NCBI GenBank assembly: GCA_023732985.1
Contig: GCA_023732985.1_3946.1
DNA: 64,000 bases
Source: a phage
Reading direction: 5' to 3' (one strand)
The notes below the pieces were generated by a model that saw nothing but the letters and a program-made list of their open reading frames with translations, did not search any database and was not told the DNA's origin. Every line of letters starts with the position of its first letter. The first letter of the stretch is position 1. This document shows positions 1,433 through 25,738 of this stretch, piece by piece. The position numbers were made by a program, and so were the translations under genes.

Positions 1433-2473
1433 ATGGAGAAGTACACGCTAACAAAACTTCCCGATTCAGTTACACATGTCTTTATTGACTCTGATAGTAT
1501 TGCCTATAAAGGTGCTTGTGTAGTTGAGAAAGCAAAATATAAGTATGTCAATAAACTCACAGCAGAAGAATCTGAACCATTTGATAATGCAAAAGATGCG
1601 GCAAGATGGTTAGCAGACCAGAGAATCCTTGTGGAAGAACTTGGCCTGACATTTGATGAAGATGAATGGGAAAGACAGACTTGGAAAGAAGCTAAGAGTG
1701 AAAAAGAAGCTATCATGGCTACTCAGCAGGTTCTTCAGGAATGGCTTAAGATTGTTGGTAAAGAGAGAACTTGGGTAGGTTATTTAACAGAGAAAGGTGT
1801 GCATAAACATAAAGACATTAAAGGTCTTGAGCACCAATATCAAGGTAACCGTAAAGATGCTGTCACACCAACACACTTAGTTGCTTGTCGTGAGTATCTT
1901 CTGTCAAGACCAGAGTTCAAACTCTTAAAGGGTGGCTTCGAAGCCGATTCAATCGTAATTGCTAAAGCTGAAAAGATGGGTAAGAAAGCTGCTCTTATGA
2001 GCATTGACAAAGACCTTCGACAAGCTGAAGGGACTTACTGCATTGATATGACCTATGAAAAATCACCACTAATCTTTATTGCTGACAATAATGTTGGTGA
2101 TATCTGGGATTGCCCTATCAAATCAAAACCAAAAGCTGCAAAAACAGTTGGCGTAGGTTTTAAATTCTTGTGTTATCAGGCTGTTGCTGGAGATAATGCA
2201 GACAACTACTTCGGCCTAAAAGGTGCTGGTAAAGTAGCTGTGATGAATGCTTTAGAGGGTAAAGAGACCTACAAAGAGTGTCTTGACGCTATCTATGAAC
2301 TTTATGCTAAAAAAGATTCTTATACCTATGTGTCATGGGATGGACAGACTGTTACCAAAACACCATTAGAGTTAATGGAACAGCATTTCTGGATAGCATA
2401 TCAAGAGAGAAATCCAAAAGACAATTTCTCTTTCAAGAAATATAATTGGGAGCCGTGTATGAATGAAGATTAA
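1433..2473 (+). CDS. 5'-3' exonuclease / flap endonuclease (RNase H-like)
   Basis: GGFEADSIVIAKA and SIDKDLRQ resemble the G-EADD-I and DKD motifs of the Pol I 5' nuclease / T4 RNase H family. Confidence 0.6.
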   Translation: MEKYTLTKLPDSVTHVFIDSDSIAYKGACVVEKAKYKYVNKLTAEESEPFDNAKDAARWLADQRILVEELGLTFDEDEWERQTWKEAKSEKEAIMATQQVLQEWLKIVGKERTWVGYLTEKGVHKHKDIKGLEHQYQGNRKDAVTPTHLVACREYLLSRPEFKLLKGGFEADSIVIAKAEKMGKKAALMSIDKDLRQAEGTYCIDMTYEKSPLIFIADNNVGDIWDCPIKSKPKAAKTVGVGFKFLCYQAVAGDNADNYFGLKGAGKVAVMNALEGKETYKECLDAIYELYAKKDSYTYVSWDGQTVTKTPLELMEQHFWIAYQERNPKDNFSFKKYNWEPCMNED

Positions 2474-2960
2474 AGGATTTGGCAATTGCCCTACCTACGG
2501 TCATTGGGTATCTTTATGTGGGGAAGTTGACCCCACTAAACATTTTGGCTTTGTCTATTTAGTGCACTGTAAGAAGACTGGACAATATTATATCGGAAAG
2601 AAACAGCTTAACAGTGTGACAAAAAGAAAAGTTGCTGGGAAGACTCGGAAGAAGGTAGTCACTAAGGAGAGTGATTGGATGACTTACGAGACTTCTTCTG
2701 AGTATATTAAAAAAGATATTGAGAGCTTTGGAAAAGAATTTTTTGACTTTTACATCATTCAGACCTACTACACAAAAGGTGGCCTAGTCTATGGTGAAGC
2801 AAACCTTCAACATAAATTCGATGTAATGACAAAAAGGATTGACTCGAAGCTCAGACTCTTCTACAATGCCAATATTGCAGCAATTAAGTTTATTACTAAA
2901 GAAACTTATGAAGATGCTGAAAAAAGAATCCATAAGGTAATGAAAGCAAATTGTGCTTGA
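2463..2960 (+). CDS. putative GIY-YIG-like nuclease
   Basis: FVYLVHCKKTGQYYIGKK resembles the GIY-(9-11 aa)-YIG motif; overlaps upstream stop. Confidence 0.45.
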   Translation: MKIKGFGNCPTYGHWVSLCGEVDPTKHFGFVYLVHCKKTGQYYIGKKQLNSVTKRKVAGKTRKKVVTKESDWMTYETSSEYIKKDIESFGKEFFDFYIIQTYYTKGGLVYGEANLQHKFDVMTKRIDSKLRLFYNANIAAIKFITKETYEDAEKRIHKVMKANCA

Positions 2961-13258: not shown

Positions 13259-13286
13259 AAGGGAACTGTAAAGGTTCCCTTTTTAT
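13259..13286 (+). terminator. intrinsic terminator
   Basis: GGGAAC ... GTTCCC then TTTTT. Confidence 0.6.
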
Positions 13287-13298
13287 TTTGGAGATAGT

Positions 13299-13814
13299 AT
13301 GTACCTGTCAAATCTGAAACGTTCTGCTGCAATGTCAGTGTTAAGACTCAGTTTTGAGGAACGTCAAGAGTTCATTGACTCCCACCAATACGACCCTTCC
13401 AACTCCAATCACATGATTCTCTGGAATCGTGAGAGTACTCGTGAAAGAGCATTATTTCGATATTACCCACACTACACCATAGATAATCTGTATGAATGTT
13501 TTGTTGTGAAGAACACCATTACAGTACTCAATAAACTTTGCAGATACACAGGCAGTCAATCCTTCACATTAGGTCATCACAAACCTATTACAAAAGGTGG
13601 TGAACATCACTGTGCAAACTGGTTTATCCAAACTAAAGCTGATAACCAGAAGCAAGGAGATAGCCTCCTAAGTATCCCTAAGATGACCTATGAAGAGCAA
13701 GAGAAATATATCAAAAATAATATGCCAGATGTGCTTGACAACAACTATACAGATTTGGCAATATCTCTCCTGTTGAAGTTCGAGACAGTTTATAGGGCAA
13801 CTTATAATGGCTAA
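13299..13814 (+). CDS. HNH endonuclease
   Basis: GHHKPITKGGEHHCANWFIQTKADNQKQGD resembles the HNH motif. Confidence 0.6.
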   Translation: MYLSNLKRSAAMSVLRLSFEERQEFIDSHQYDPSNSNHMILWNRESTRERALFRYYPHYTIDNLYECFVVKNTITVLNKLCRYTGSQSFTLGHHKPITKGGEHHCANWFIQTKADNQKQGDSLLSIPKMTYEEQEKYIKNNMPDVLDNNYTDLAISLLLKFETVYRATYNG

Positions 13815-14085
13815 AGAAAAGTGGGAGATTTTACCATTAGTCAGTGAAGGAGGTAATGGTTGTGAAATGTACATGATACGTGGTCATGTTCCAGAGCCAA
13901 TTGCACTTGAGATGGTAAACAACTTTACAGATGGTTCTTACAAAGACTTAGGCGAACCAACTGTCAAGCAACAATGGGTTAAACCTGTACCAGACAGCAC
14001 AGGTAACTGTAGTGTACTTTATCACGTTGTAGACCCTGCAAAATGCAAATCTGCAATGGCAGTAACAAACGTAACTTTTGATTGA
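13807..14085 (+). CDS. hypothetical protein
   Basis: ORF overlapping upstream stop. Confidence 0.5.
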   Translation: MAKEKWEILPLVSEGGNGCEMYMIRGHVPEPIALEMVNNFTDGSYKDLGEPTVKQQWVKPVPDSTGNCSVLYHVVDPAKCKSAMAVTNVTFD

Positions 14086-14096
14086 GAGAGAAAACT

Positions 14097-14978
14097 ATGA
14101 AAACATCTATCCGTGTTACAGTTCATTCACCAACTAAAGGAACTCATGAAGAAGAGTTTAACATCATCCAATTTCCTTCTGGTGAGATTGGTGGACACTT
14201 TTCGCCAGAGTTTGTTGATTTCACTGCTTATGCAGCATCATCCATCAACAATGTGATTATGGTTGTAAAAGGCTATGATAAGGATACATTGTTTGCTGTG
14301 GCACTTGCTAAAGAAGCAATTGATGATTTAATTCCTCATGATTATGCTTTAAAAACTGTCATCTTTTACTACTTACCAAATGCACGTTATGACCGTCACA
14401 TGTTTAAAGGCGACGCAGCAGCTTTAAAGGTTTTTGCTAAACAGGTAAATGCAATGGGATTTGGTGCAGTCTGTGCAGTTGACCCTCACAGCTATGTACC
14501 AGATAACCTGTTTAACTGCTTCCAGAGTATTCCTCAAAAGGAAATTGCAGTCCACTATGCAAATGACCCACTGATTGATTACTTAGTAGCCCCAGATGCA
14601 GGTGCTGCTAAGAAGATTGCAGAGACTGCTAAAGATGTGGATAAACCATATATCACAATGTCTAAAGTACGCAACCTTAAGACTGGTGAAATTACTGGTA
14701 TGCGAATCCTTGATGATGTTGATTTGACAGATAAAACCGTCATGATTCTGGATGATATCTGTGATGGTGGTCGAACCTTCATAGAAGCAGCTAAACATCT
14801 TCGTGAAGCAGGTGCAAAACGTGTGGAACTCTATGTAACACACGGTATCTTCTCTAAAGATGTTGAAAACCTTCTTGACAATGGCATTGACCACATCTAC
14901 ACTACAAACTCTTTAGGGGAAGCTAAAGACCGTGGCTTAACACATTATGGTCAAGTTACTGTAGCAAACCTTGATTGA
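14097..14978 (+). CDS. ribose-phosphate pyrophosphokinase-like protein (Prs-like; possible ADPR pyrophosphorylating enzyme)
   Basis: VMILDDICDGGRTF is a PRPP-binding P-loop motif; about 294 aa; directly upstream of the NAMPT-like gene. Confidence 0.7.
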   Translation: MKTSIRVTVHSPTKGTHEEEFNIIQFPSGEIGGHFSPEFVDFTAYAASSINNVIMVVKGYDKDTLFAVALAKEAIDDLIPHDYALKTVIFYYLPNARYDRHMFKGDAAALKVFAKQVNAMGFGAVCAVDPHSYVPDNLFNCFQSIPQKEIAVHYANDPLIDYLVAPDAGAAKKIAETAKDVDKPYITMSKVRNLKTGEITGMRILDDVDLTDKTVMILDDICDGGRTFIEAAKHLREAGAKRVELYVTHGIFSKDVENLLDNGIDHIYTTNSLGEAKDRGLTHYGQVTVANLD

Positions 14979-14998
14979 AACTTTATAGGGGCTTAAAA
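14977..14998 (+). terminator. intrinsic terminator
   Basis: GGGGCTT-AAA-AGCCCC then ATTTT. Confidence 0.55.
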
Positions 14999-15023
14999 GC
15001 CCCATTTTGAGAGAGATTAAAAG

Positions 15024-16805
15024 ATGACTAAATCACTTTATGCAGTACCAGCAGGTTTAAACGCAGATGCTTACAAATCTGGTCATGTTTACCAGTACCC
15101 TAGTGCAACAGAGTACTTGATGTTCAACCTGACACCACGTAGTGACAAATGGTTTAACAGCCCCTTAGCAATTGATGGTGTAGTAGCTTTTGGTATTCAA
15201 CGTTTCGTTAAAGATTACTTGATAGACCACTGGAACGCCACTTTCTTTGAACGTGATAAAAAAGAAGCCATTGATGAAATCTTAGAAGTCATGAATGGTG
15301 TTCTGGGTAAAGATGCTATCGGTCGAGAGCATTGGGAAGCACTTCACGACTTAGGTTATCTACCAGTTGAAGTATACGCTGTAGAAGAAGGTACAGTTGT
15401 TCCTATGCGTGTACCAATGATTGTCTTCCAGAACACTGTTTCAGGTTTCCATTGGGTAGCGGGATATCTGGAAGATGCTTTCTCTGCTGAGATTTGGAAG
15501 GCTTGTACCATTGCAACTATTGCATTGCATTATAAACGCATCTGTAAGAAGTGGGCTGACCTTACTTGCGACAATGACTTACATTTACCTTATCAGTGCC
15601 ATGACTTTGCTATGCGTGGTATGTCCGGCTTTACTGATGACGCATTTAACGCTGTAGGCCACTTAACCAGCTTTAAAGGGACTGATAGCTTCCCTGCTGT
15701 ATATACAGCTAAACGCATCTACGGACAGTCTTACCCAGTCTCTGATATTGGTGGTTCTGTACCAGCCACTGAACACTCTGTAATGTGTGCAAACATTGCT
15801 TGGGAAGGTGGTAATGAGTTGGTTGAAGAAGAAAGACGCTTTAAAGGTGAGTTGCAAACCTTCCGTCGCTTCTTAACAGAAACTTATCCAACTGGTATTG
15901 CAAGTGTTGTTTCAGACACTTATAACTTCTGGAGAACTGTGTCAGAAATCTTACCAGCACTCCGTAAAGAAATTATGGAACGTGATGGCAAACTGGTAAT
16001 TCGTCCTGACTCTGGAGACCCTGTACACATTGTCACAGGTTATAAAGCAATCCACTTAGAGTGTGCTAAAAAGGCTTATTATGAGCACCTAAGCAAGCTG
16101 GAAGCCAGTGACACAATGTTGAATGCTGTTCTGAACATGAAGCTTGAAAACATCAACTATGGTATTGCTGGATGGCTACTGTCAGAAGGCTACGAAATGG
16201 TTGTTGACAGAGAAGACTTTGAAGCTGCTGATACGGTGATGTTGAAGAATGCTTATATGGTTGGCTCTGCAAATGTTGTAACACGTCCTGTAGCTGAGAT
16301 TGATGGAGCTATTAAGACACTGTACAACATCTTTGGGGGAACTATCAACTCTAAAGGCTTTAAGGTACTGGATGAGCACATTGGACTTATCTATGGTGAC
16401 TCTATCACGTTGGAACGTGCAAACGAAATCCTGAAGCGCCTGTACGAAATGGGTTTTGCAAGCTCTAACGTAGTGTTTGGTGTAGGTTCTTACACTTACC
16501 AGTACATGACTCGTGACACATTTGCATTTGCTGTCAAAGCAACTCTTGCAAGCATTGGTGGTAAAGAGATTATGCTTGCAAAAGACCCTAAAACAGATAG
16601 TGGTATTAAGAAGTCTGCTTTTGGTGGTGTAGCCCCTATGTGGGATGGTGAGAATTTGAAAGCTGTAGATGGCTATGGATTCCAGAGCTTTGCAGATGCA
16701 CTTGAACATCCAGCTTGTGCTTTACGTTTAGTCTTTAGCGACTCTGAGCAGTACGGTTACACAACTCTTGGTGATATTCGAAATAATATTGACAAGCAGC
16801 TTTAA
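15024..16805 (+). CDS. nicotinamide phosphoribosyltransferase-like protein (NadV/NAMPT family)
   Basis: VVFGVGSYTYQYMTRDTFAFAVKAT resembles the conserved NAMPT motif; large type II PRTase-like protein. Confidence 0.75.
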   Translation: MTKSLYAVPAGLNADAYKSGHVYQYPSATEYLMFNLTPRSDKWFNSPLAIDGVVAFGIQRFVKDYLIDHWNATFFERDKKEAIDEILEVMNGVLGKDAIGREHWEALHDLGYLPVEVYAVEEGTVVPMRVPMIVFQNTVSGFHWVAGYLEDAFSAEIWKACTIATIALHYKRICKKWADLTCDNDLHLPYQCHDFAMRGMSGFTDDAFNAVGHLTSFKGTDSFPAVYTAKRIYGQSYPVSDIGGSVPATEHSVMCANIAWEGGNELVEEERRFKGELQTFRRFLTETYPTGIASVVSDTYNFWRTVSEILPALRKEIMERDGKLVIRPDSGDPVHIVTGYKAIHLECAKKAYYEHLSKLEASDTMLNAVLNMKLENINYGIAGWLLSEGYEMVVDREDFEAADTVMLKNAYMVGSANVVTRPVAEIDGAIKTLYNIFGGTINSKGFKVLDEHIGLIYGDSITLERANEILKRLYEMGFASSNVVFGVGSYTYQYMTRDTFAFAVKATLASIGGKEIMLAKDPKTDSGIKKSAFGGVAPMWDGENLKAVDGYGFQSFADALEHPACALRLVFSDSEQYGYTTLGDIRNNIDKQL

Positions 16806-16818
16806 AAGTATATGATAA

Positions 16819-16842
16819 GAGGCTCCTACGGGAGCCTTTTTA
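16819..16842 (+). terminator. intrinsic terminator
   Basis: GGCTCC-TACG-GGAGCC then TTTTT. Confidence 0.65.
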
Positions 16843-16858
16843 ATTTCTGGAGAATGCT

Positions 16859-17203
16859 ATGGACAACCTTTCCATATGGTTTAACAATAAACCTGTACAA
16901 CCGAAATACTTACAAGTTGCCTATACAGACATCCTTAAAGTTCTCGGTAAAGAAAAGTTTGAAAAGTTTTGTGAAGGTATCTACAATCACCACTGCCAAT
17001 TTGCTACAAAAGAAGGTATGTTTGTCATAGAACAGTTCTTTGGCAGAGACCCAGATGACTACGAAGAGATTAGCTTTGTAATGAAATACATGATAGAGTA
17101 TATTGAAAATCGTGGATTCGAAGTTAATCCTGAATTTTATGAACATGAGGGTGTACCTTTAGCAAAAGGTTTCGATGGCATACTCATTAACTGGACTTGG
17201 TGA
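16859..17203 (+). CDS. hypothetical protein
   Basis: GGAGA RBS; ORF after terminator. Confidence 0.5.
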   Translation: MDNLSIWFNNKPVQPKYLQVAYTDILKVLGKEKFEKFCEGIYNHHCQFATKEGMFVIEQFFGRDPDDYEEISFVMKYMIEYIENRGFEVNPEFYEHEGVPLAKGFDGILINWTW

Positions 17204-17544
17204 AAACTATGAAAATCAAAGAGATGAACATCAACATTATCTTAGAAGAACGTTGGGAGAACATTAAGAAACCTGAAGATGGTAAAAAGTTCCTTAACAA
17301 AATTTTAGTAGCAGCTAAAGAAGAACTGACTGGCAAGATTGCAGCAGCAATCACAATAAAAGTTTGTGTAAAAGGTCTTCCAGACCATCACCAATTTGCA
17401 CTTGACGAGTTTAAAAAAAGCTTCTACAATCCAAACAAACAGATGCTTGAAAGTAACTTTGCAGTATCTACAAGTATCGTCCATGACAGAAGCTTTATCC
17501 TTTACAAAAACATGAGGGGTGAGTCATGCAAGCATATTGGGTAG
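17197..17544 (+). CDS. hypothetical protein
   Basis: ORF overlapping upstream stop. Confidence 0.5.
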   Translation: MVKTMKIKEMNINIILEERWENIKKPEDGKKFLNKILVAAKEELTGKIAAAITIKVCVKGLPDHHQFALDEFKKSFYNPNKQMLESNFAVSTSIVHDRSFILYKNMRGESCKHIG

Positions 17545-20176: not shown

Positions 20177-21286
20177 ATGACTACTAAAACTAAAGCACAG
20201 ATTGACGCAGAAATTTACAAACTGGTTAAAGAAGGTAAGCTGACTAAAACAGCTATTGCACAGAAATTTAATACTTCAACCCGTTCAGTTGGTCGTGCTG
20301 TAGAGCGTCATGAAGCAACCTTAAAAGGGAATAAGAAGGCGACTTCTACACCAGCTACGAAAACTTTGAAGCAAGTTGCTAAGACCTTTAAGAAGAAAGC
20401 TGGCAAACCAGTTGAAAAGGCTGTTAAAGAGTCTGTACAGAAAGTTCCGGTAAATAAACTGCACGAAGCTATGCAGAAAGATGACAAGATTGAGTACATG
20501 ATTACTGGTGATTCTGTAATTATGACTTATGGTTCAGAATCTGAAATTGTTGAGTCTACTCATCCGAACTATCAAGAGATTGTAGTTCATGTTGTGAAAG
20601 GTGAGTTCAAGAAAGCATTTGAACTGATGAACATTCGTAAGTCTATCGAAAACTTCACTCAGGGTGCTATCACAATCAAAGGCGACAAGCTATTCTACGG
20701 TGCTGTTGAGATGCGTTCTACTCTGGTTGACCGTATTCTTCACATGATGAAAACTGGCGATAAAGGTTTTGAACGACTTGTAATGTTCTTCGAAAAACTG
20801 ATGGAAAACCCATCTAAAGATTCTGTAGAACAACTTTGGGGATTTGTATCTCACCTTGATGTTGAAATTGATGAAGAAGGCTACATCATTGGTTGGAAGA
20901 AAGTCTCTACTCGTGAAGGCAAGCTGGTTGACTCTCACACCTACAAAGTGCCTAATGATTTGGGTAACATTGTAGAAATGCCACGTTGGATGGTTGATAA
21001 TAACCGTAACGTAACTTGCTCTCAAGGTCTTCATGTTGGTGCTTGGGATTATGTTCGTTGCTTCTCAGGTGATACAATCCTGAAGGTTCGCGTACATCCA
21101 CGAGATGTTGTATCTGTTCCAACTGATTACAATGATATGAAGATGCGTTCCTCTCGTTATGAAGTTGCAGCAATCGTTGATAATCAACGTAAAGTGCTGG
21201 AAGCATGGGACGGTAAGACTGAAGCTTTGCATGTCATCGTTGGCACTGCTGGTGAACTCATCTCTCAACGTAAACGTGAAATCTAA
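20177..21286 (+). CDS. rIIB-like protein (tentative)
   Basis: called only from position downstream of the rIIA-like gene and its size. Confidence 0.4.
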   Translation: MTTKTKAQIDAEIYKLVKEGKLTKTAIAQKFNTSTRSVGRAVERHEATLKGNKKATSTPATKTLKQVAKTFKKKAGKPVEKAVKESVQKVPVNKLHEAMQKDDKIEYMITGDSVIMTYGSESEIVESTHPNYQEIVVHVVKGEFKKAFELMNIRKSIENFTQGAITIKGDKLFYGAVEMRSTLVDRILHMMKTGDKGFERLVMFFEKLMENPSKDSVEQLWGFVSHLDVEIDEEGYIIGWKKVSTREGKLVDSHTYKVPNDLGNIVEMPRWMVDNNRNVTCSQGLHVGAWDYVRCFSGDTILKVRVHPRDVVSVPTDYNDMKMRSSRYEVAAIVDNQRKVLEAWDGKTEALHVIVGTAGELISQRKREI

Positions 21287-24958: not shown

Positions 24959-25738
24959 ATGGGTATTGTAAAAGTTGTGAAAGGTAACTTACTAGCTGCC
25001 TTCAAAAACACAGACATTGAGTTAATTGCTCATGGTTGCAACTGCCGTAACCTCATGGGTGCTGGAATCGCTCAAAAAATTGCTAAGATTTTCCCAAAAG
25101 CTGAAGAAGCTGACCGGAAATTCCATAAAAAGTTTGGCTACAGCGCTCATGATATCGGATACCAGATGGTTGGTGAGGTGTCACATGCTCGAACGGAGTA
25201 TGGTTACATTTTTAACCTATATACACAGTTGGATGTTGGGAAGTGTGCATCATACCGATACTTAGTGGAGTCACTAGAAAAACTCCGTAAATTTTGCTGG
25301 ATGCACAACATTCGTAAGATTGGTTTACCCATGATTGGTGCAGGTATCGGTGGCTTAGACGCACAAGCTGTGAAAAGCCTCATTAATAGCGTTATGTACA
25401 ACGTTGATGTGTACCTATACGTCTATGATGAAGCAATGGCAACTGTAGTTACCCCTAAGTATGCCACCTCAGCACCACAATTCTATGATGGTGTCGTGCT
25501 AAGTGACGGTAAATCTAACCATGTTACCCTCTATCAGCTTGTTGATGGTAAGGTCGAGGCTAGTTACCCTCTGGTTAGTGAGATGGGTATGTGTAATAGT
25601 GAAATGTTCTCAATTGACCCATTTGGTAGATACGAAGGGGTGTTCTTTGATAACTACCCAGCAGCATACATCTACACAACAAATCAGGATGAAGTTCACT
25701 ACTTGCTGTATTCTAAAAAGTTCAAATTCATAAACTGA
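24959..25738 (+). CDS. macro-domain-like protein (possible ADP-ribose binding/processing)
   Basis: IAHGCNCRNLMGAGIAQKI and GLPMIGAGIGG resemble the two Gly-rich macro-domain motifs; weak. Confidence 0.45.
   Translation: MGIVKVVKGNLLAAFKNTDIELIAHGCNCRNLMGAGIAQKIAKIFPKAEEADRKFHKKFGYSAHDIGYQMVGEVSHARTEYGYIFNLYTQLDVGKCASYRYLVESLEKLRKFCWMHNIRKIGLPMIGAGIGGLDAQAVKSLINSVMYNVDVYLYVYDEAMATVVTPKYATSAPQFYDGVVLSDGKSNHVTLYQLVDGKVEASYPLVSEMGMCNSEMFSIDPFGRYEGVFFDNYPAAYIYTTNQDEVHYLLYSKKFKFIN

What the first reader, a model, noticed from the sequence alone, without database searches (positions are those of the whole stretch)
14097..16805. Adjacent Prs-like and NAMPT-like genes: candidate NAD+ reconstitution (anti-defence) module
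A PRPP-synthetase-like gene (PRPP-binding loop VMILDDICDGGRTF) is immediately followed by a NAMPT-family gene (VVFGVGSYTYQYMTRD), with no NMN adenylyltransferase nearby. A two-enzyme pair of this type has been described in phages as a pathway that rebuilds NAD+ from ADP-ribose and nicotinamide, countering NAD+-depleting defences. The alternative is ordinary PRPP plus nicotinamide salvage to NMN. The macro-domain-like protein at 24959-25738 may be related ADP-ribose biology.
Basis: partly seen in the sequence, partly recalled or inferred. Interest (0 to 1): 0.6.

Follow-up and report, generated by a model that had tools for sequence, protein, structure and literature searches.

The report
Known phage NAD+ rebuilding operon (NARP1)
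These two adjacent genes are the already described phage pathway NARP1, which rebuilds NAD+ from ADP-ribose and nicotinamide to defeat NAD+-depleting bacterial defences; this copy sits in a Felix O1-like phage closely related to the one in which the pathway was discovered, so it is correct but not new.

Summary
ORF 14097-14978 (293 aa) is Prs-like and ORF 15024-16805 (593 aa) is NAMPT-like. They lie on the same strand, 45 nt apart, and both quoted motifs are present.

The window is a Felixounavirus (96-98% nucleotide identity to E. coli phages JLBYU32, SP22 and wV8). The pair is syntenic and orthologous to genes 79-80 of phage Bas63 (JohannRWettstein): 78% and 97% protein identity, equal lengths, no gaps. 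Deleting that operon is how Osterman et al. defined NARP1 (Adps + Namat).

The Namat-like protein carries the published Namat signature GSYTYQYMTRD, the K42-W43 loop stacking pair and the full catalytic core. It scores 428 bits against the SPbetaL1 Namat structure, against 141-180 bits for true Nampts. The Adps-like protein keeps the catalytic lysine (K190) and the ADP-ribose-binding residues defined in the ICP1 Adps structure.

No NMN adenylyltransferase was found among the window's ORFs of 120 aa or more.

The Macro-domain ORF at 24959-25738 is homologous to the NARP1-associated ADPR-1''-phosphate phosphatase Adpp (E=1e-13 to the tested Gary enzyme). It lies 8.2 kb away, outside the published ±2-gene criterion, and its role is untested.

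Verdict: interpretation supported, already known, low interest.

The parts
14097..14978 (+). adps: ADP-ribose diphosphokinase (PRPS-like), 293 aa. Predicted reaction: ADPR + ATP -> ADPR-PP + AMP.
   Evidence: TIGR01251 at 120.7 bits and phrog_619 at E=1.7e-96. It is 78% identical over 293 aa, without gaps, to Bas63_0079. K190 aligns with the catalytic K185 of ICP1 Adps and K162 of SPbetaL1 Adps. F26, R97, H131, D167, D219, D220 and D223 align with ICP1 F18, R87, H121, D161, D212, D213 and D216 (residues as defined in PMC13586617).
14751..14777 (+). Codons for Adps residues 219-227 (DDICDGGRT): the acceptor-ribose aspartates and the PP loop.
   Evidence: Alignment A2. ICP1 has DDICDGAAS, SPbetaL1 has DDLSSFGGT and E. 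coli Prs has DDMIDTGGT.
14988..15003 (+). Conserved stem-loop GGGGCT-TAAA-AGCCCC in the 45-nt adps-namat spacer, followed by ATTTTG. Possibly a weak attenuator or an RNA-stability element.
   Evidence: The stem is identical in Bas63 and wV8; the only difference is one loop base in Bas63. The 51-nt spacer (14976-15026), which contains the hairpin, folds at -12.6 kcal/mol, z=-3.07 against shuffles. The terminator scan did not call it, because the T run is only four bases. Function not tested.
15024..16805 (+). namat: nicotinamide ADP-ribose transferase (NAMPT-like), 593 aa. Predicted reaction: ADPR-PP + nicotinamide -> NAD+ + PPi.
   Evidence: NF006629 at 469 bits. It is 97% identical over 593 aa, without gaps, to Bas63_0080. 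The best solved-structure match is SPbetaL1 Namat (9w5w/9w5x) at 428 bits, against 180 bits for Xanthomonas Nampt and 141 bits for human NAMPT. It groups with seven NARP1-linked Namats and away from KVP40 Nampt.
16485..16517 (+). Codons for Namat residues 488-498, GSYTYQYMTRD: the 'selectivity clamp helix' (SCH) signature that stacks on the adenine of ADPR-PP/NAD+.
   Evidence: The motif GSX-Phi-X-Phi-X-Phi-TRD with aromatic X is defined in PMC12774641. It is found here and in Bas63, SPbetaL1, FADO, ICP1, Cody and K8 Namats, whereas KVP40 Nampt has GGGLLQQLDRD.
16041..16298 (+). Lineage-specific insertion in Namat (about residues 340-425), absent from SPbetaL1, FADO and ICP1 Namats.
   Evidence: HMMER splits the match to 9w5x around residues 350-427, and MAFFT shows gaps in the other Namats. 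A tblastn of this segment found only 254 Felix O1-like (Ounavirinae-type) records; of the 40 rows displayed, nearly all were such phages of about 82-91 kb. Bas63 also has the insertion, so it is compatible with function.
16817..16840 (+). Intrinsic-terminator-like hairpin with a T tract immediately after namat; likely the end of the transcription unit.
   Evidence: The terminator scan reports 10 pairs, 5 of them G-C, followed by a T run. The sequence was read directly.
24959..25738 (+). Macro-domain protein (259 aa: Macro domain at about residues 1-155 plus a C-terminal extension of about 105 aa of unknown fold). A candidate unlinked ADPR-1''-phosphate phosphatase (Adpp-like); whether it belongs to the pathway is not established.
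   Evidence: Pfam Macro at 29.8 bits and phrog_335 'phosphatase' at E=1.9e-84. It is 28% identical, E=1e-13, to the biochemically tested Adpp of Vibrio phage Gary. It is 35% identical, E=2e-25, to Pseudomonas phage K8 K8_019, which is listed as a NARP1-associated Macro protein in Table S1 of bioRxiv 10.64898/2026.01.28.702374. It lies 8154 nt and 15 ORFs downstream of namat.

Best explanation
The two genes are the NARP1 operon of a Felixounavirus. When a host defence (SIR2-, TIR- or SEFIR-type NADase) cleaves NAD+ into ADP-ribose and nicotinamide, Adps (14097-14978) transfers the beta-gamma pyrophosphate of ATP onto the 1'' hydroxyl of the terminal ribose of ADP-ribose, giving ADPR-PP. Namat (15024-16805) then replaces that pyrophosphate with nicotinamide and regenerates NAD+ directly, with no NMN intermediate and no NMN adenylyltransferase. 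This restores the NAD+ pool and lets the phage replicate. Shown here: gene presence and arrangement, orthology to the experimentally deleted Bas63 operon, and conservation of the published catalytic and specificity residues. Inferred from published work on orthologs and homologs: the two reactions and the anti-defence phenotype.
For: The window is a Felixounavirus (taxonomy).

Orthology to Bas63:
- The gene order nrdG, four small ORFs, adps, namat, three small ORFs, rIIA, rIIB matches Bas63.
- Adps is 78% and Namat 97% identical to Bas63_0079 and Bas63_0080, at equal length and without gaps.

Published results for Bas63 (bioRxiv 10.1101/2024.02.11.579819):
- Deleting genes 79-80 gave about 20-fold fewer plaques on SIR2-HerA cells.
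- NAD+ was partly restored only with the operon present.
- ADPR-PP (m/z 720.010) was seen only with both the operon and the defence system.

Namat signatures (PMC12774641), all found here:
- The SCH motif, as GSYTYQYMTRD.
- The SCL Lys-then-stacking-residue arrangement, K42-W43, identical to Bas63.
- The catalytic core: D15, Y17, F195, R198, D221, H251, R327, D329.

Bit scores against solved structures are 428 for SPbetaL1 Namat, 180 for Xanthomonas Nampt and 141 for human NAMPT. Identity is 41-48% to six other NARP1-linked Namats and 30% to the NARP2 Nampt of KVP40.

Adps residues defined structurally in ICP1 Adps (PMC13586617) are conserved:
- K190, R97, H131, D167, D219, D220, D223 and F26.
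- The C-terminus is shorter than that of E. coli Prs.

No NMNAT was found in the window.
Against: No enzyme from this window, nor from Bas63, has been assayed in vitro. The biochemistry comes from SPbetaL1 and ICP1 homologs that are 30-32% (Adps) and about 45% (Namat) identical.

The window's Adps N-terminal domain (residues 1-180) is only 58-75% identical to the Bas63 allele that was tested in vivo.

One adenine-contact residue of ICP1 Adps (F92) is M102 here. The PP loop reads CDGGRT rather than CDGAAS, although the tested SPbetaL1 enzyme also differs at these positions.

Namat retains some PRPP-to-NMN activity in vitro, so a minor contribution from conventional salvage cannot be excluded.

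The window covers 64 kb of a genome of about 87 kb, so an NMNAT elsewhere is excluded only by the annotations of relatives. The stretches viewed, about 49 kb of Bas63 and about 23 kb of wV8, list none.
Confidence: 0.9

Rival explanations
1. Conventional salvage. The first enzyme is a true PRPP synthetase and the second a true Nampt. Together they make NMN, which host NadR or PncC/NadD convert into NAD+. This would boost nucleotide and NAD+ supply in general rather than reuse the products of a defence.
For: Both proteins reach the thresholds of the general families (TIGR01251 and NF006629). All relatives are annotated this way. The genes sit next to nucleotide-metabolism genes, nrdAB and nrdDG. 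Namat can make NMN from PRPP in vitro.
Against: [quoted passage not shown] SPbetaL1 Adps gave no product in the assay with the canonical Prs substrate (ribose-5-phosphate in the Fig. 2D legend) plus ATP, and SPbetaL1 Namat made only NAD+ when given PRPP and ADPR-PP together. The window's protein carries the Namat adenine clamp, which true Nampts lack. The Prs-like protein falls far below every equivalog-level Prs cut-off, for example 102.8 bits against 296.
Confidence: 0.05
2. NARP2-type pathway: Nampt plus a phage NMN adenylyltransferase, building NAD+ from PRPP through NMN.
For: The NAMPT-family gene is present, and RefSeq annotates it as 'nadV' by analogy with KVP40.
Against: No NMNAT or Nudix family was found among the window's ORFs of 120 aa or more. 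The protein is only 30% identical to KVP40 Nampt and lacks its GGGLLQQLDRD version of the clamp region. An Adps gene is adjacent, and Osterman et al. report that no phage encodes both pathways.
Confidence: 0.02
3. Extension rather than a strict rival. The pathway here has three enzymes working in trans, a 'split NARP1-AP'. The unlinked Macro-domain protein (24959-25738) would dephosphorylate ADPR-1''-phosphate, the product of aRES RES-domain defences, into ADP-ribose. That would feed Adps and extend protection to aRES.
For: The Macro domain is homologous over its full length to the assayed Adpp of Vibrio phage Gary (E=1e-13) and to the operon-linked Macro protein of Pseudomonas phage K8 (E=2e-25). 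The motifs H-x-CNC-x3-MG-x-GIA, N-[LV]-Y-x-Q and GLP-x-IG-x-G are shared. A full-length homolog is present in about 257 records, essentially the same number as carry this NARP1. The published survey looked only within two genes of NARP1 and lists no enterobacterial phages.
Against: The gene is 8.2 kb and 15 ORFs away, with a terminator-like site between it and NARP1. The same family (phrog_335, T4 tk.4) is common in T4-like phages, which did not appear among the listed Adps matches, so it must have a NARP1-independent role there. The gene is only 40% identical between this window and Bas63, while Namat is 97% identical. It carries an uncharacterised C-terminal extension of about 105 aa. No sensitivity data for Felixounaviruses on aRES were found.
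Confidence: 0.3

Closest known systems
NARP1 operon of Escherichia phage JohannRWettstein (Bas63), genes bas63_0079-0080 (GenBank MZ501086)
   Same: Same genus (Felixounavirus). Same position between the nrdG block and rIIA. Same gene lengths (293 and 593 aa). Same conserved spacer hairpin. Namat is 97% and Adps 78% identical.
   Different: The N-terminal domain of Adps is a different allele: 58-75% amino-acid identity over residues 1-180 and 57-78% nucleotide identity. Among database Felixounaviruses the window's allele is the commoner one: 155 records at 90% identity or more, against 91 at 60-80%.
SPbetaL1 Adps/Namat (biochemically characterised; Namat structures 9w5w/9w5x) and FADO NARP1
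   Same: Adjacent adps-namat pair. Catalytic lysine (K162 in SPbetaL1, K190 here). Namat catalytic core. SCH motif GS[FY]TYQYxTRD.
   Different: Identity is 30% for Adps and 45% for Namat. The SCL uses K42-W43 instead of a stacking Arg40. Namat here has an extra insertion of about 76 aa and another of about 15 aa.
Vibrio phage ICP1 Adps (structures with ADPR/ATP and with ADPR-PP/AMP; PMC13586617)
   Same: PRPS-like protein with conserved R87, H121, D161, K185, D212, D213, D216 and F18 equivalents, and a truncated C-terminus relative to PRPS.
   Different: 32% identity. F92 is M102 here. The PP loop is CDGGRT rather than CDGAAS, and F223 is E230.
NARP1-AP (Adps-Adpp-Namat) of Vibrio phage Gary and of Pakpunavirus phages such as K8
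   Same: The genome encodes Adps, Namat and a Macro-domain protein of the same family as Adpp.
   Different: Here the Macro gene is not in or next to the operon: it is 8.2 kb and 15 ORFs away. It also carries a C-terminal extension of about 105 aa that is absent from the 158-159-aa Adpp proteins.
NARP2 of Vibrio phage KVP40 (Nampt NadV + Nmnat NatV)
   Same: A NAMPT-family enzyme used by a phage to restore NAD+.
   Different: No Nmnat here. Only 30% identity to KVP40 Nampt. The clamp region differs (GSYTYQYMTRD against GGGLLQQLDRD). An Adps gene is adjacent.

Membership tests
NARP1 (Adps + Namat) | Adps-clade Prs homolog and Namat homolog encoded side by side | tested here: met
   Both are on the + strand, at 14097-14978 and 15024-16805, with a 45-nt spacer. 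Osterman et al. found a Namat homolog next to 97% of Adps-clade genes.
NARP1 (Adps + Namat) | Orthology to an operon with a demonstrated anti-defence phenotype | tested here: met
   78% and 97% identity, full length and without gaps, to Bas63_0079 and Bas63_0080 in conserved synteny. The deletion phenotype is reported in bioRxiv 10.1101/2024.02.11.579819.
Adps | Catalytic beta-hairpin lysine (ICP1 K185, SPbetaL1 K162) | tested here: met
   K190 aligns with both. The K185A and K162A substitutions abolish activity.
Adps | Acceptor-groove residues R87, H121, D161, D212, D213, D216 and the adenine-stacking F18 (ICP1 numbering) | tested here: met
   R97, H131, D167, D219, D220, D223 and F26. The second aromatic, F92, is M102, and that position is a gap in SPbetaL1 and FADO.
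Adps | Conserved, remodelled PP loop (ICP1 C215-S220) used as the donor site | tested here: inconclusive
   The window has CDGGRT, ICP1 CDGAAS, SPbetaL1 SSFGGT and E. coli Prs IDTGGT. The loop varies among enzymes with demonstrated activity, so sequence alone does not decide.
Adps | Loss of the C-terminal alpha11-alpha12 module of PRPS | tested here: met
   The protein has 293 aa against 315 in E. coli Prs, and the alignment ends short of the Prs C-terminal helices. This is sequence evidence only.
Adps | ATP-dependent pyrophosphorylation of ADP-ribose, not of ribose-5-phosphate | not testable with these tools
   Needs an enzyme assay. Shown for the SPbetaL1 and ICP1 homologs only.
Namat | SCH signature GSX-Phi-X-Phi-X-Phi-TRD with aromatic X | tested here: met
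   GSYTYQYMTRD at residues 488-498. The definition is in PMC12774641. KVP40 Nampt has GGGLLQQLDRD.
Namat | SCL loop with Arg, or Lys/Tyr followed by a stacking residue | tested here: met
   TPRSDK42-W43, identical to Bas63. The paper describes this as the Lys-plus-next-residue type.
Namat | Nampt-like catalytic core (D13, Y15, F189, R192, D215, catalytic His, R306, D308; SPbetaL1 numbering) | tested here: met
   D15, Y17, F195, R198, D221, H251, R327 and D329.
Namat | Placement with NARP1-linked Namats rather than with Nampts | tested here: met
   PDB scores of 428 bits (SPbetaL1 Namat) against 180 and 141 bits (Nampts). A neighbour-joining tree and identities of 41-48% against 30% point the same way. 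The sampling is small: eight sequences.
Namat | Preference for ADPR-PP over PRPP, with NAD+ as the product | not testable with these tools
   Needs an enzyme assay. Shown for SPbetaL1 Namat.
NARP2 (Nampt + Nmnat) | NMN adenylyltransferase encoded by the same phage | tested here: not met
   No cytidylyltransferase/NMNAT or Nudix family among the window's ORFs of 120 aa or more. The 'NAD synthetase' label on the homolog of ORF 2463-2960 is contradicted by a SegE GIY-YIG hit of 97 bits.
NARP1-AP (Adps + Adpp + Namat) | Macro-domain gene within two genes of the NARP1 pair (the criterion of bioRxiv 10.64898/2026.01.28.702374) | tested here: not met
   The flanking ORFs (13299-13814, 13807-14085, 16859-17203, 17197-17544) have no Macro hit. 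The only Macro ORF is 8154 nt downstream.
NARP1-AP (Adps + Adpp + Namat) | Macro protein homologous to Adpp (Poa1p-like) | tested here: met
   E=1e-13 to Gary Adpp and E=2e-25 to K8_019. A weak match to the N-terminus of yeast Poa1p (6lfq, E=1.2e-4).
NARP1-AP (Adps + Adpp + Namat) | ADPR-1''-phosphate phosphatase activity and rescue from aRES | not testable with these tools
   Needs an assay. No data on Felixounaviruses were found in the preprint or in its held supplements.
Canonical PRPP synthetase (Prs) | Reaches the equivalog-level Prs model cut-offs | tested here: not met
   The best equivalog, NF002095, scores 102.8 bits against a cut-off of 296. Only the broad TIGR01251 subfamily model passes, at 120.7 against 113. 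Identity to E. coli Prs is 24%.

The most novel reading that the evidence does not exclude
Felix O1-like phages may run a 'split' three-enzyme version of the pathway. The Macro-domain protein encoded 8 kb downstream (24959-25738) has an extra C-terminal domain of about 105 aa. It would act in trans as an ADPR-1''-phosphate phosphatase that feeds NARP1, giving these phages resistance to aRES-type defences as well. The published operon-based survey would have missed this. The extreme divergence of the gene between otherwise near-identical phages (40% against 97% for Namat) would then reflect arms-race pressure on it.
Probability: 0.3. Interest if true: 0.4.

Novelty: already known. Interest (0 to 1): 0.15.

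Why it matters
NARP1 is a broad-spectrum counter-defence. According to Osterman et al. it neutralises type I Thoeris, DSR1, DSR2, SIR2-HerA and SEFIR, which matters for choosing or engineering therapeutic phages. This window adds no new principle. It shows that database annotations of this gene pair in Felixounaviruses ('ribose-phosphate pyrophosphokinase', 'nadV', 'nicotinate phosphoribosyltransferase') are outdated. It also offers a testable lead: an unlinked Adpp-like Macro protein might extend the pathway to aRES.

Tried and rejected
1. Search for an NMNAT. The wV8 RefSeq annotation calls the homolog of window ORF 2463-2960 'NAD synthetase', and phrog_447 has the same label. Pfam gives SegE GIY-YIG at 97 bits, so I rejected this ORF as an NAD enzyme. 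Pfam scans of all other plausible ORFs of 120 aa or more found no NMNAT or Nudix family.

2. NARP3 (PnuC-like transporter plus NadR-like enzyme; PMC13464706). It has different gene content, and nothing like it was found in the scans.

3. A TARG1/DarG-type mechanism for the Macro ORF. HMMER aligns the ORF to human OARD1/TARG1 (E=4e-8) and to the DarG macrodomain model (57.6 bits against a cut-off of 250). By my own count on the alignment, the positions of the TARG1 catalytic K84 and D125 are Q and G here. That numbering comes from my own knowledge of TARG1 and was not checked against a paper. I therefore judged a lysine-based glycohydrolase mechanism unlikely.

4. Single-sequence AlphaFold2 of the Macro ORF, to identify its C-terminal extension. 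The mean pLDDT was 37, so the model is unusable and I ran no fold search.

5. A search of the aRES preprint and its supplements for infection data on Bas63 or any Felixounavirus found none.

6. Locating Bas63 took several probes of BASEL accession numbers.

7. I did not use the large protein-database searches (search for homologous proteins, the search of protein representatives). Orthology to a characterised operon had already settled the question.


Full report
**Observation.**
- The window holds two adjacent + strand ORFs at the stated coordinates: 14097-14978 (293 aa from the ATG) and 15024-16805 (593 aa). A longer TTG-initiated reading starts at 14082.
- The quoted motifs are present at Adps residues 215-228 and Namat residues 483-498.
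- The first protein matches ribose-phosphate diphosphokinase models (TIGR01251 at 120.7 bits; Pfam Pribosyltran and Pribosyl_synth; phrog_619 at E=1.7e-96).
- The second matches the NAMPT family (NF006629 at 469 bits; Pfam NAPRTase and NAMPT_N; phrog_448 at E=9.4e-203).

**Where the window comes from.** A megablast of 14000-16900 finds 258 phage records. Nearly all are Felix O1-like phages of Escherichia, Salmonella, Shigella and Citrobacter, and the best reach 96-98.5% identity (JLBYU32, SP22, wV8). wV8 is classified as Ounavirinae, Felixounavirus. Every record annotates the pair as 'ribose-phosphate pyrophosphokinase' plus 'nicotinamide/nicotinate phosphoribosyltransferase (nadV)'.

**Identity with the founding example of NARP1.** Osterman et al. 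(bioRxiv 10.1101/2024.02.11.579819) discovered NAD+ reconstitution pathway 1 by deleting genes 79-80 of the BASEL phage Bas63 (JohannRWettstein), the only Felixounavirus of that collection. I located Bas63 as MZ501086.
- Gene order is the same as in the window: nrdG, four small ORFs, gene 79, gene 80, three small ORFs, rIIA, rIIB, and further on polynucleotide kinase, spanins and a 'putative phosphatase'.
- The window's proteins are 78% (293/293 aa aligned, no gaps) and 97% (593/593 aa aligned, no gaps) identical to Bas63_0079 and Bas63_0080.
- Published results for that operon:
  - its deletion reduces plating on SIR2-HerA cells about 20-fold;
  - it partly restores NAD+;
  - it is required for the appearance of ADPR-PP in infected, defence-carrying cells;
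- The enzymology was done on the SPbetaL1 homologs. [quoted passage not shown] 2D legend) gave no product. Namat converts ADPR-PP and nicotinamide into NAD+ and prefers ADPR-PP over PRPP.

**Family-defining features of Namat.** Lan et al. (PMC12774641) solved SPbetaL1 Namat and defined a 'selectivity clamp'. It consists of a helix motif GSX-Phi-X-Phi-X-Phi-TRD with aromatic X (SCH) and a variable loop (SCL) carrying Arg, or Lys/Tyr followed by a stacking residue.
- The best solved-structure match of the window's protein is that Namat (9w5w/9w5x, 428 bits). Xanthomonas Nampt scores 180 bits and human NAMPT 141 bits.
- Mapping the HMMER alignment gives D15, Y17, K42(-W43), F195, R198, D221, H251, R327, D329, G458-D459 and G488-S489-Y-T-Y-Q-Y-M-T-R-D498. 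The catalytic core, the SCH signature and the Bas63-type SCL are all present.
- In an alignment of eight sequences, all seven NARP1-linked proteins (window, Bas63, SPbetaL1, FADO, ICP1, Cody, K8) carry GS[YF]TYQ[YC]xTRD, whereas the NARP2 Nampt of KVP40 has GGGLLQQLDRD.
- The window's protein is 41-48% identical to the other Namats outside its own genus (97.5% to Bas63) and 30% identical to KVP40 Nampt.

**Family-defining features of Adps.** Liu et al. (PMC13586617) solved ICP1 Adps with substrates and with products. I aligned ICP1, SPbetaL1, FADO, Bas63, the window and E. coli Prs.
- The catalytic lysine is K190 here (K185 in ICP1, K162 in SPbetaL1).
- The acceptor-groove residues are R97, H131, D167, D219, D220 and D223, and the trans-protomer stacking residue is F26.
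- Differences: F92 of ICP1 is M102 here, and the PP loop reads CDGGRT (CDGAAS in ICP1, SSFGGT in SPbetaL1). The loop varies among active enzymes, so it does not decide membership.
- The protein lacks the C-terminal extension of E. coli Prs. It fails every equivalog-level Prs cut-off, which is consistent with a divergent Adps subfamily.

**Absence of NMNAT.** Pfam scans of the plausible ORFs of 120 aa or more across the window found ribonucleotide reductases, structural and lysis proteins and a MazG-like domain, but no cytidylyltransferase/NMNAT or Nudix family. The 'NAD synthetase' label attached to the homolog of ORF 2463-2960 in wV8 and in phrog_447 is contradicted by a strong SegE GIY-YIG match. 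NARP2, and NARP3 (a PnuC-like transporter plus a NadR-like enzyme), are therefore not what is here.

**Local anatomy.**
- A terminator-like hairpin at 13259-13281 precedes two tightly packed small ORFs of unknown function (13299-13814 and 13807-14085). These abut adps.
- Both adps and namat are preceded by a GAGAGAGA purine tract.
- The 45-nt spacer holds a stem-loop, GGGGCT-TAAA-AGCCCC (14988-15003). Its stem is invariant in Bas63 and wV8, and the 51-nt spacer containing it folds better than all 200 shuffles (z=-3.07).
- A clear terminator-like site follows namat at 16817-16840, abutted by an 11/12 sigma-70-like promoter match at 16789-16816.
- These are consensus matches, not evidence of function.

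**Differences from the Bas63 copy.**
- The N-terminal 180 residues of Adps are 58-75% identical, and the first 270 nt are 57-62% identical. The C-terminal 113 residues and all of Namat are 96-97% identical. This pattern indicates replacement of the N-terminal-domain allele.
- The window's allele is the commoner one among database phages.
- Namat in Ounavirinae carries an insertion of about 76 aa (about residues 340-425), found only in 254 Felix O1-like records.

**The Macro-domain ORF (24959-25738).**
- It has a Pfam Macro domain (29.8 bits) in residues about 1-155, plus an unassigned extension of about 105 aa.
- Osterman et al. 2026 (bioRxiv 10.64898/2026.01.28.702374) showed that aRES defences cleave NAD+ into nicotinamide and ADPR-1''-phosphate, which NARP1 cannot use. 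They also found that 15% of NARP1 operons include a Poa1p-like Macro phosphatase, Adpp, which restores ADP-ribose ('NARP1-AP'). Detection was limited to two genes on either side of the operon.
- The window's Macro domain matches the assayed Gary Adpp (28% identity, E=1e-13). It also matches K8_019 of Pseudomonas phage K8 (35% identity, E=2e-25), which is operon-linked and is listed in their Table S1.
- Against a link to NARP1:
  - the ORF is 8154 nt and 15 ORFs downstream;
  - no Escherichia, Salmonella, Shigella, Citrobacter or Erwinia phage appears in the held supplementary text;
  - the family includes T4 tk.4 in T4-like phages, which did not appear among the listed Adps matches;
  - the gene is only 40% identical to its syntenic Bas63 counterpart, and only 13 records are 90% identical or more.
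- Its participation in NAD+ reconstitution is therefore a plausible but untested extension; I put it at about 0.3.
- A single-sequence structure prediction of this protein failed (pLDDT 37).

**Verdict.** The gene pair is NARP1, orthologous to the very operon in which the pathway was discovered. The finding is already known and of low interest as a discovery. The only open lead is the unlinked Adpp-like Macro protein.

Noticed in passing
window 2463-2960 (+): Relatives label this 165-aa ORF 'NAD synthetase' (wV8 gp115, phrog_447). Pfam instead gives a strong SegE GIY-YIG endonuclease-domain match (97 bits). The NAD-related label looks like a legacy mis-annotation.
   Followed up: partly
window 14097-14636 (the N-terminal 180 codons of adps): This part of adps is only 58-75% identical at the amino-acid level, and 57-78% at the nucleotide level, to Bas63. 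The rest of adps, namat and most neighbouring genes are 96-99% identical at the protein level. This looks like allele replacement confined to the N-terminal domain of Adps.
   Followed up: partly
window 16041-16298 (Namat residues about 340-425): An insertion of about 76 aa relative to SPbetaL1, FADO and ICP1 Namats. A tblastn of the segment found it only in 254 Felix O1-like (Ounavirinae-type) phage records. Vibrio phage Cody has a shorter insertion at the same site. Its fold and role are unknown.
   Followed up: partly
window 14988-15003: A conserved 6-bp G+C-rich stem-loop followed by ATTTTG in the adps-namat spacer. The stem is invariant in Bas63 and wV8. It may be an attenuator or an RNA-stability element that sets the Adps:Namat ratio.
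   Followed up: partly
window 16789-16840: A near-consensus sigma-70-like promoter (TTGACA-16-TATGAT, 11 of 12 matches) lies inside the last codons of namat. It directly abuts the terminator-like hairpin at 16817-16840, so a transcript from it would start within the terminator stem.
   Followed up: no
window 24959-25738: The Macro-domain ORF is hypervariable within the genus. It is 40% identical to its syntenic Bas63 counterpart, and only 13 of 2829 matching records are 90% identical or more. It also carries a C-terminal extension of about 105 aa with no family match. Single-sequence AlphaFold2 gave pLDDT 37.
   Followed up: partly
window 13259-14085: Two small ORFs of unknown function (13299-13814, phrog_3500; 13807-14085, phrog_4726) are packed between a terminator-like hairpin (13259-13281) and adps. 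The second ends 11 nt before the adps ATG. They may be co-transcribed with NARP1. They are conserved in Bas63 (genes 77-78).
   Followed up: no
window 20177-21286: The rIIB-like protein is only 82% identical to Bas63, whereas its neighbours rIIA and polynucleotide kinase are 98% identical. This is another locally divergent gene.
   Followed up: no
L013 (Vibrio phage Cody) 569-3244 and L014 (Pseudomonas phage K8) 2139-5959: In two unrelated NARP1-AP phages the genes just upstream of adps include an RNA ligase-like protein, a small ATPase and a phosphoesterase. In the window a polynucleotide kinase lies between NARP1 and the Macro ORF. This recurring neighbourhood of RNA-repair-type genes might bear on what the Macro protein does.
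   Followed up: no
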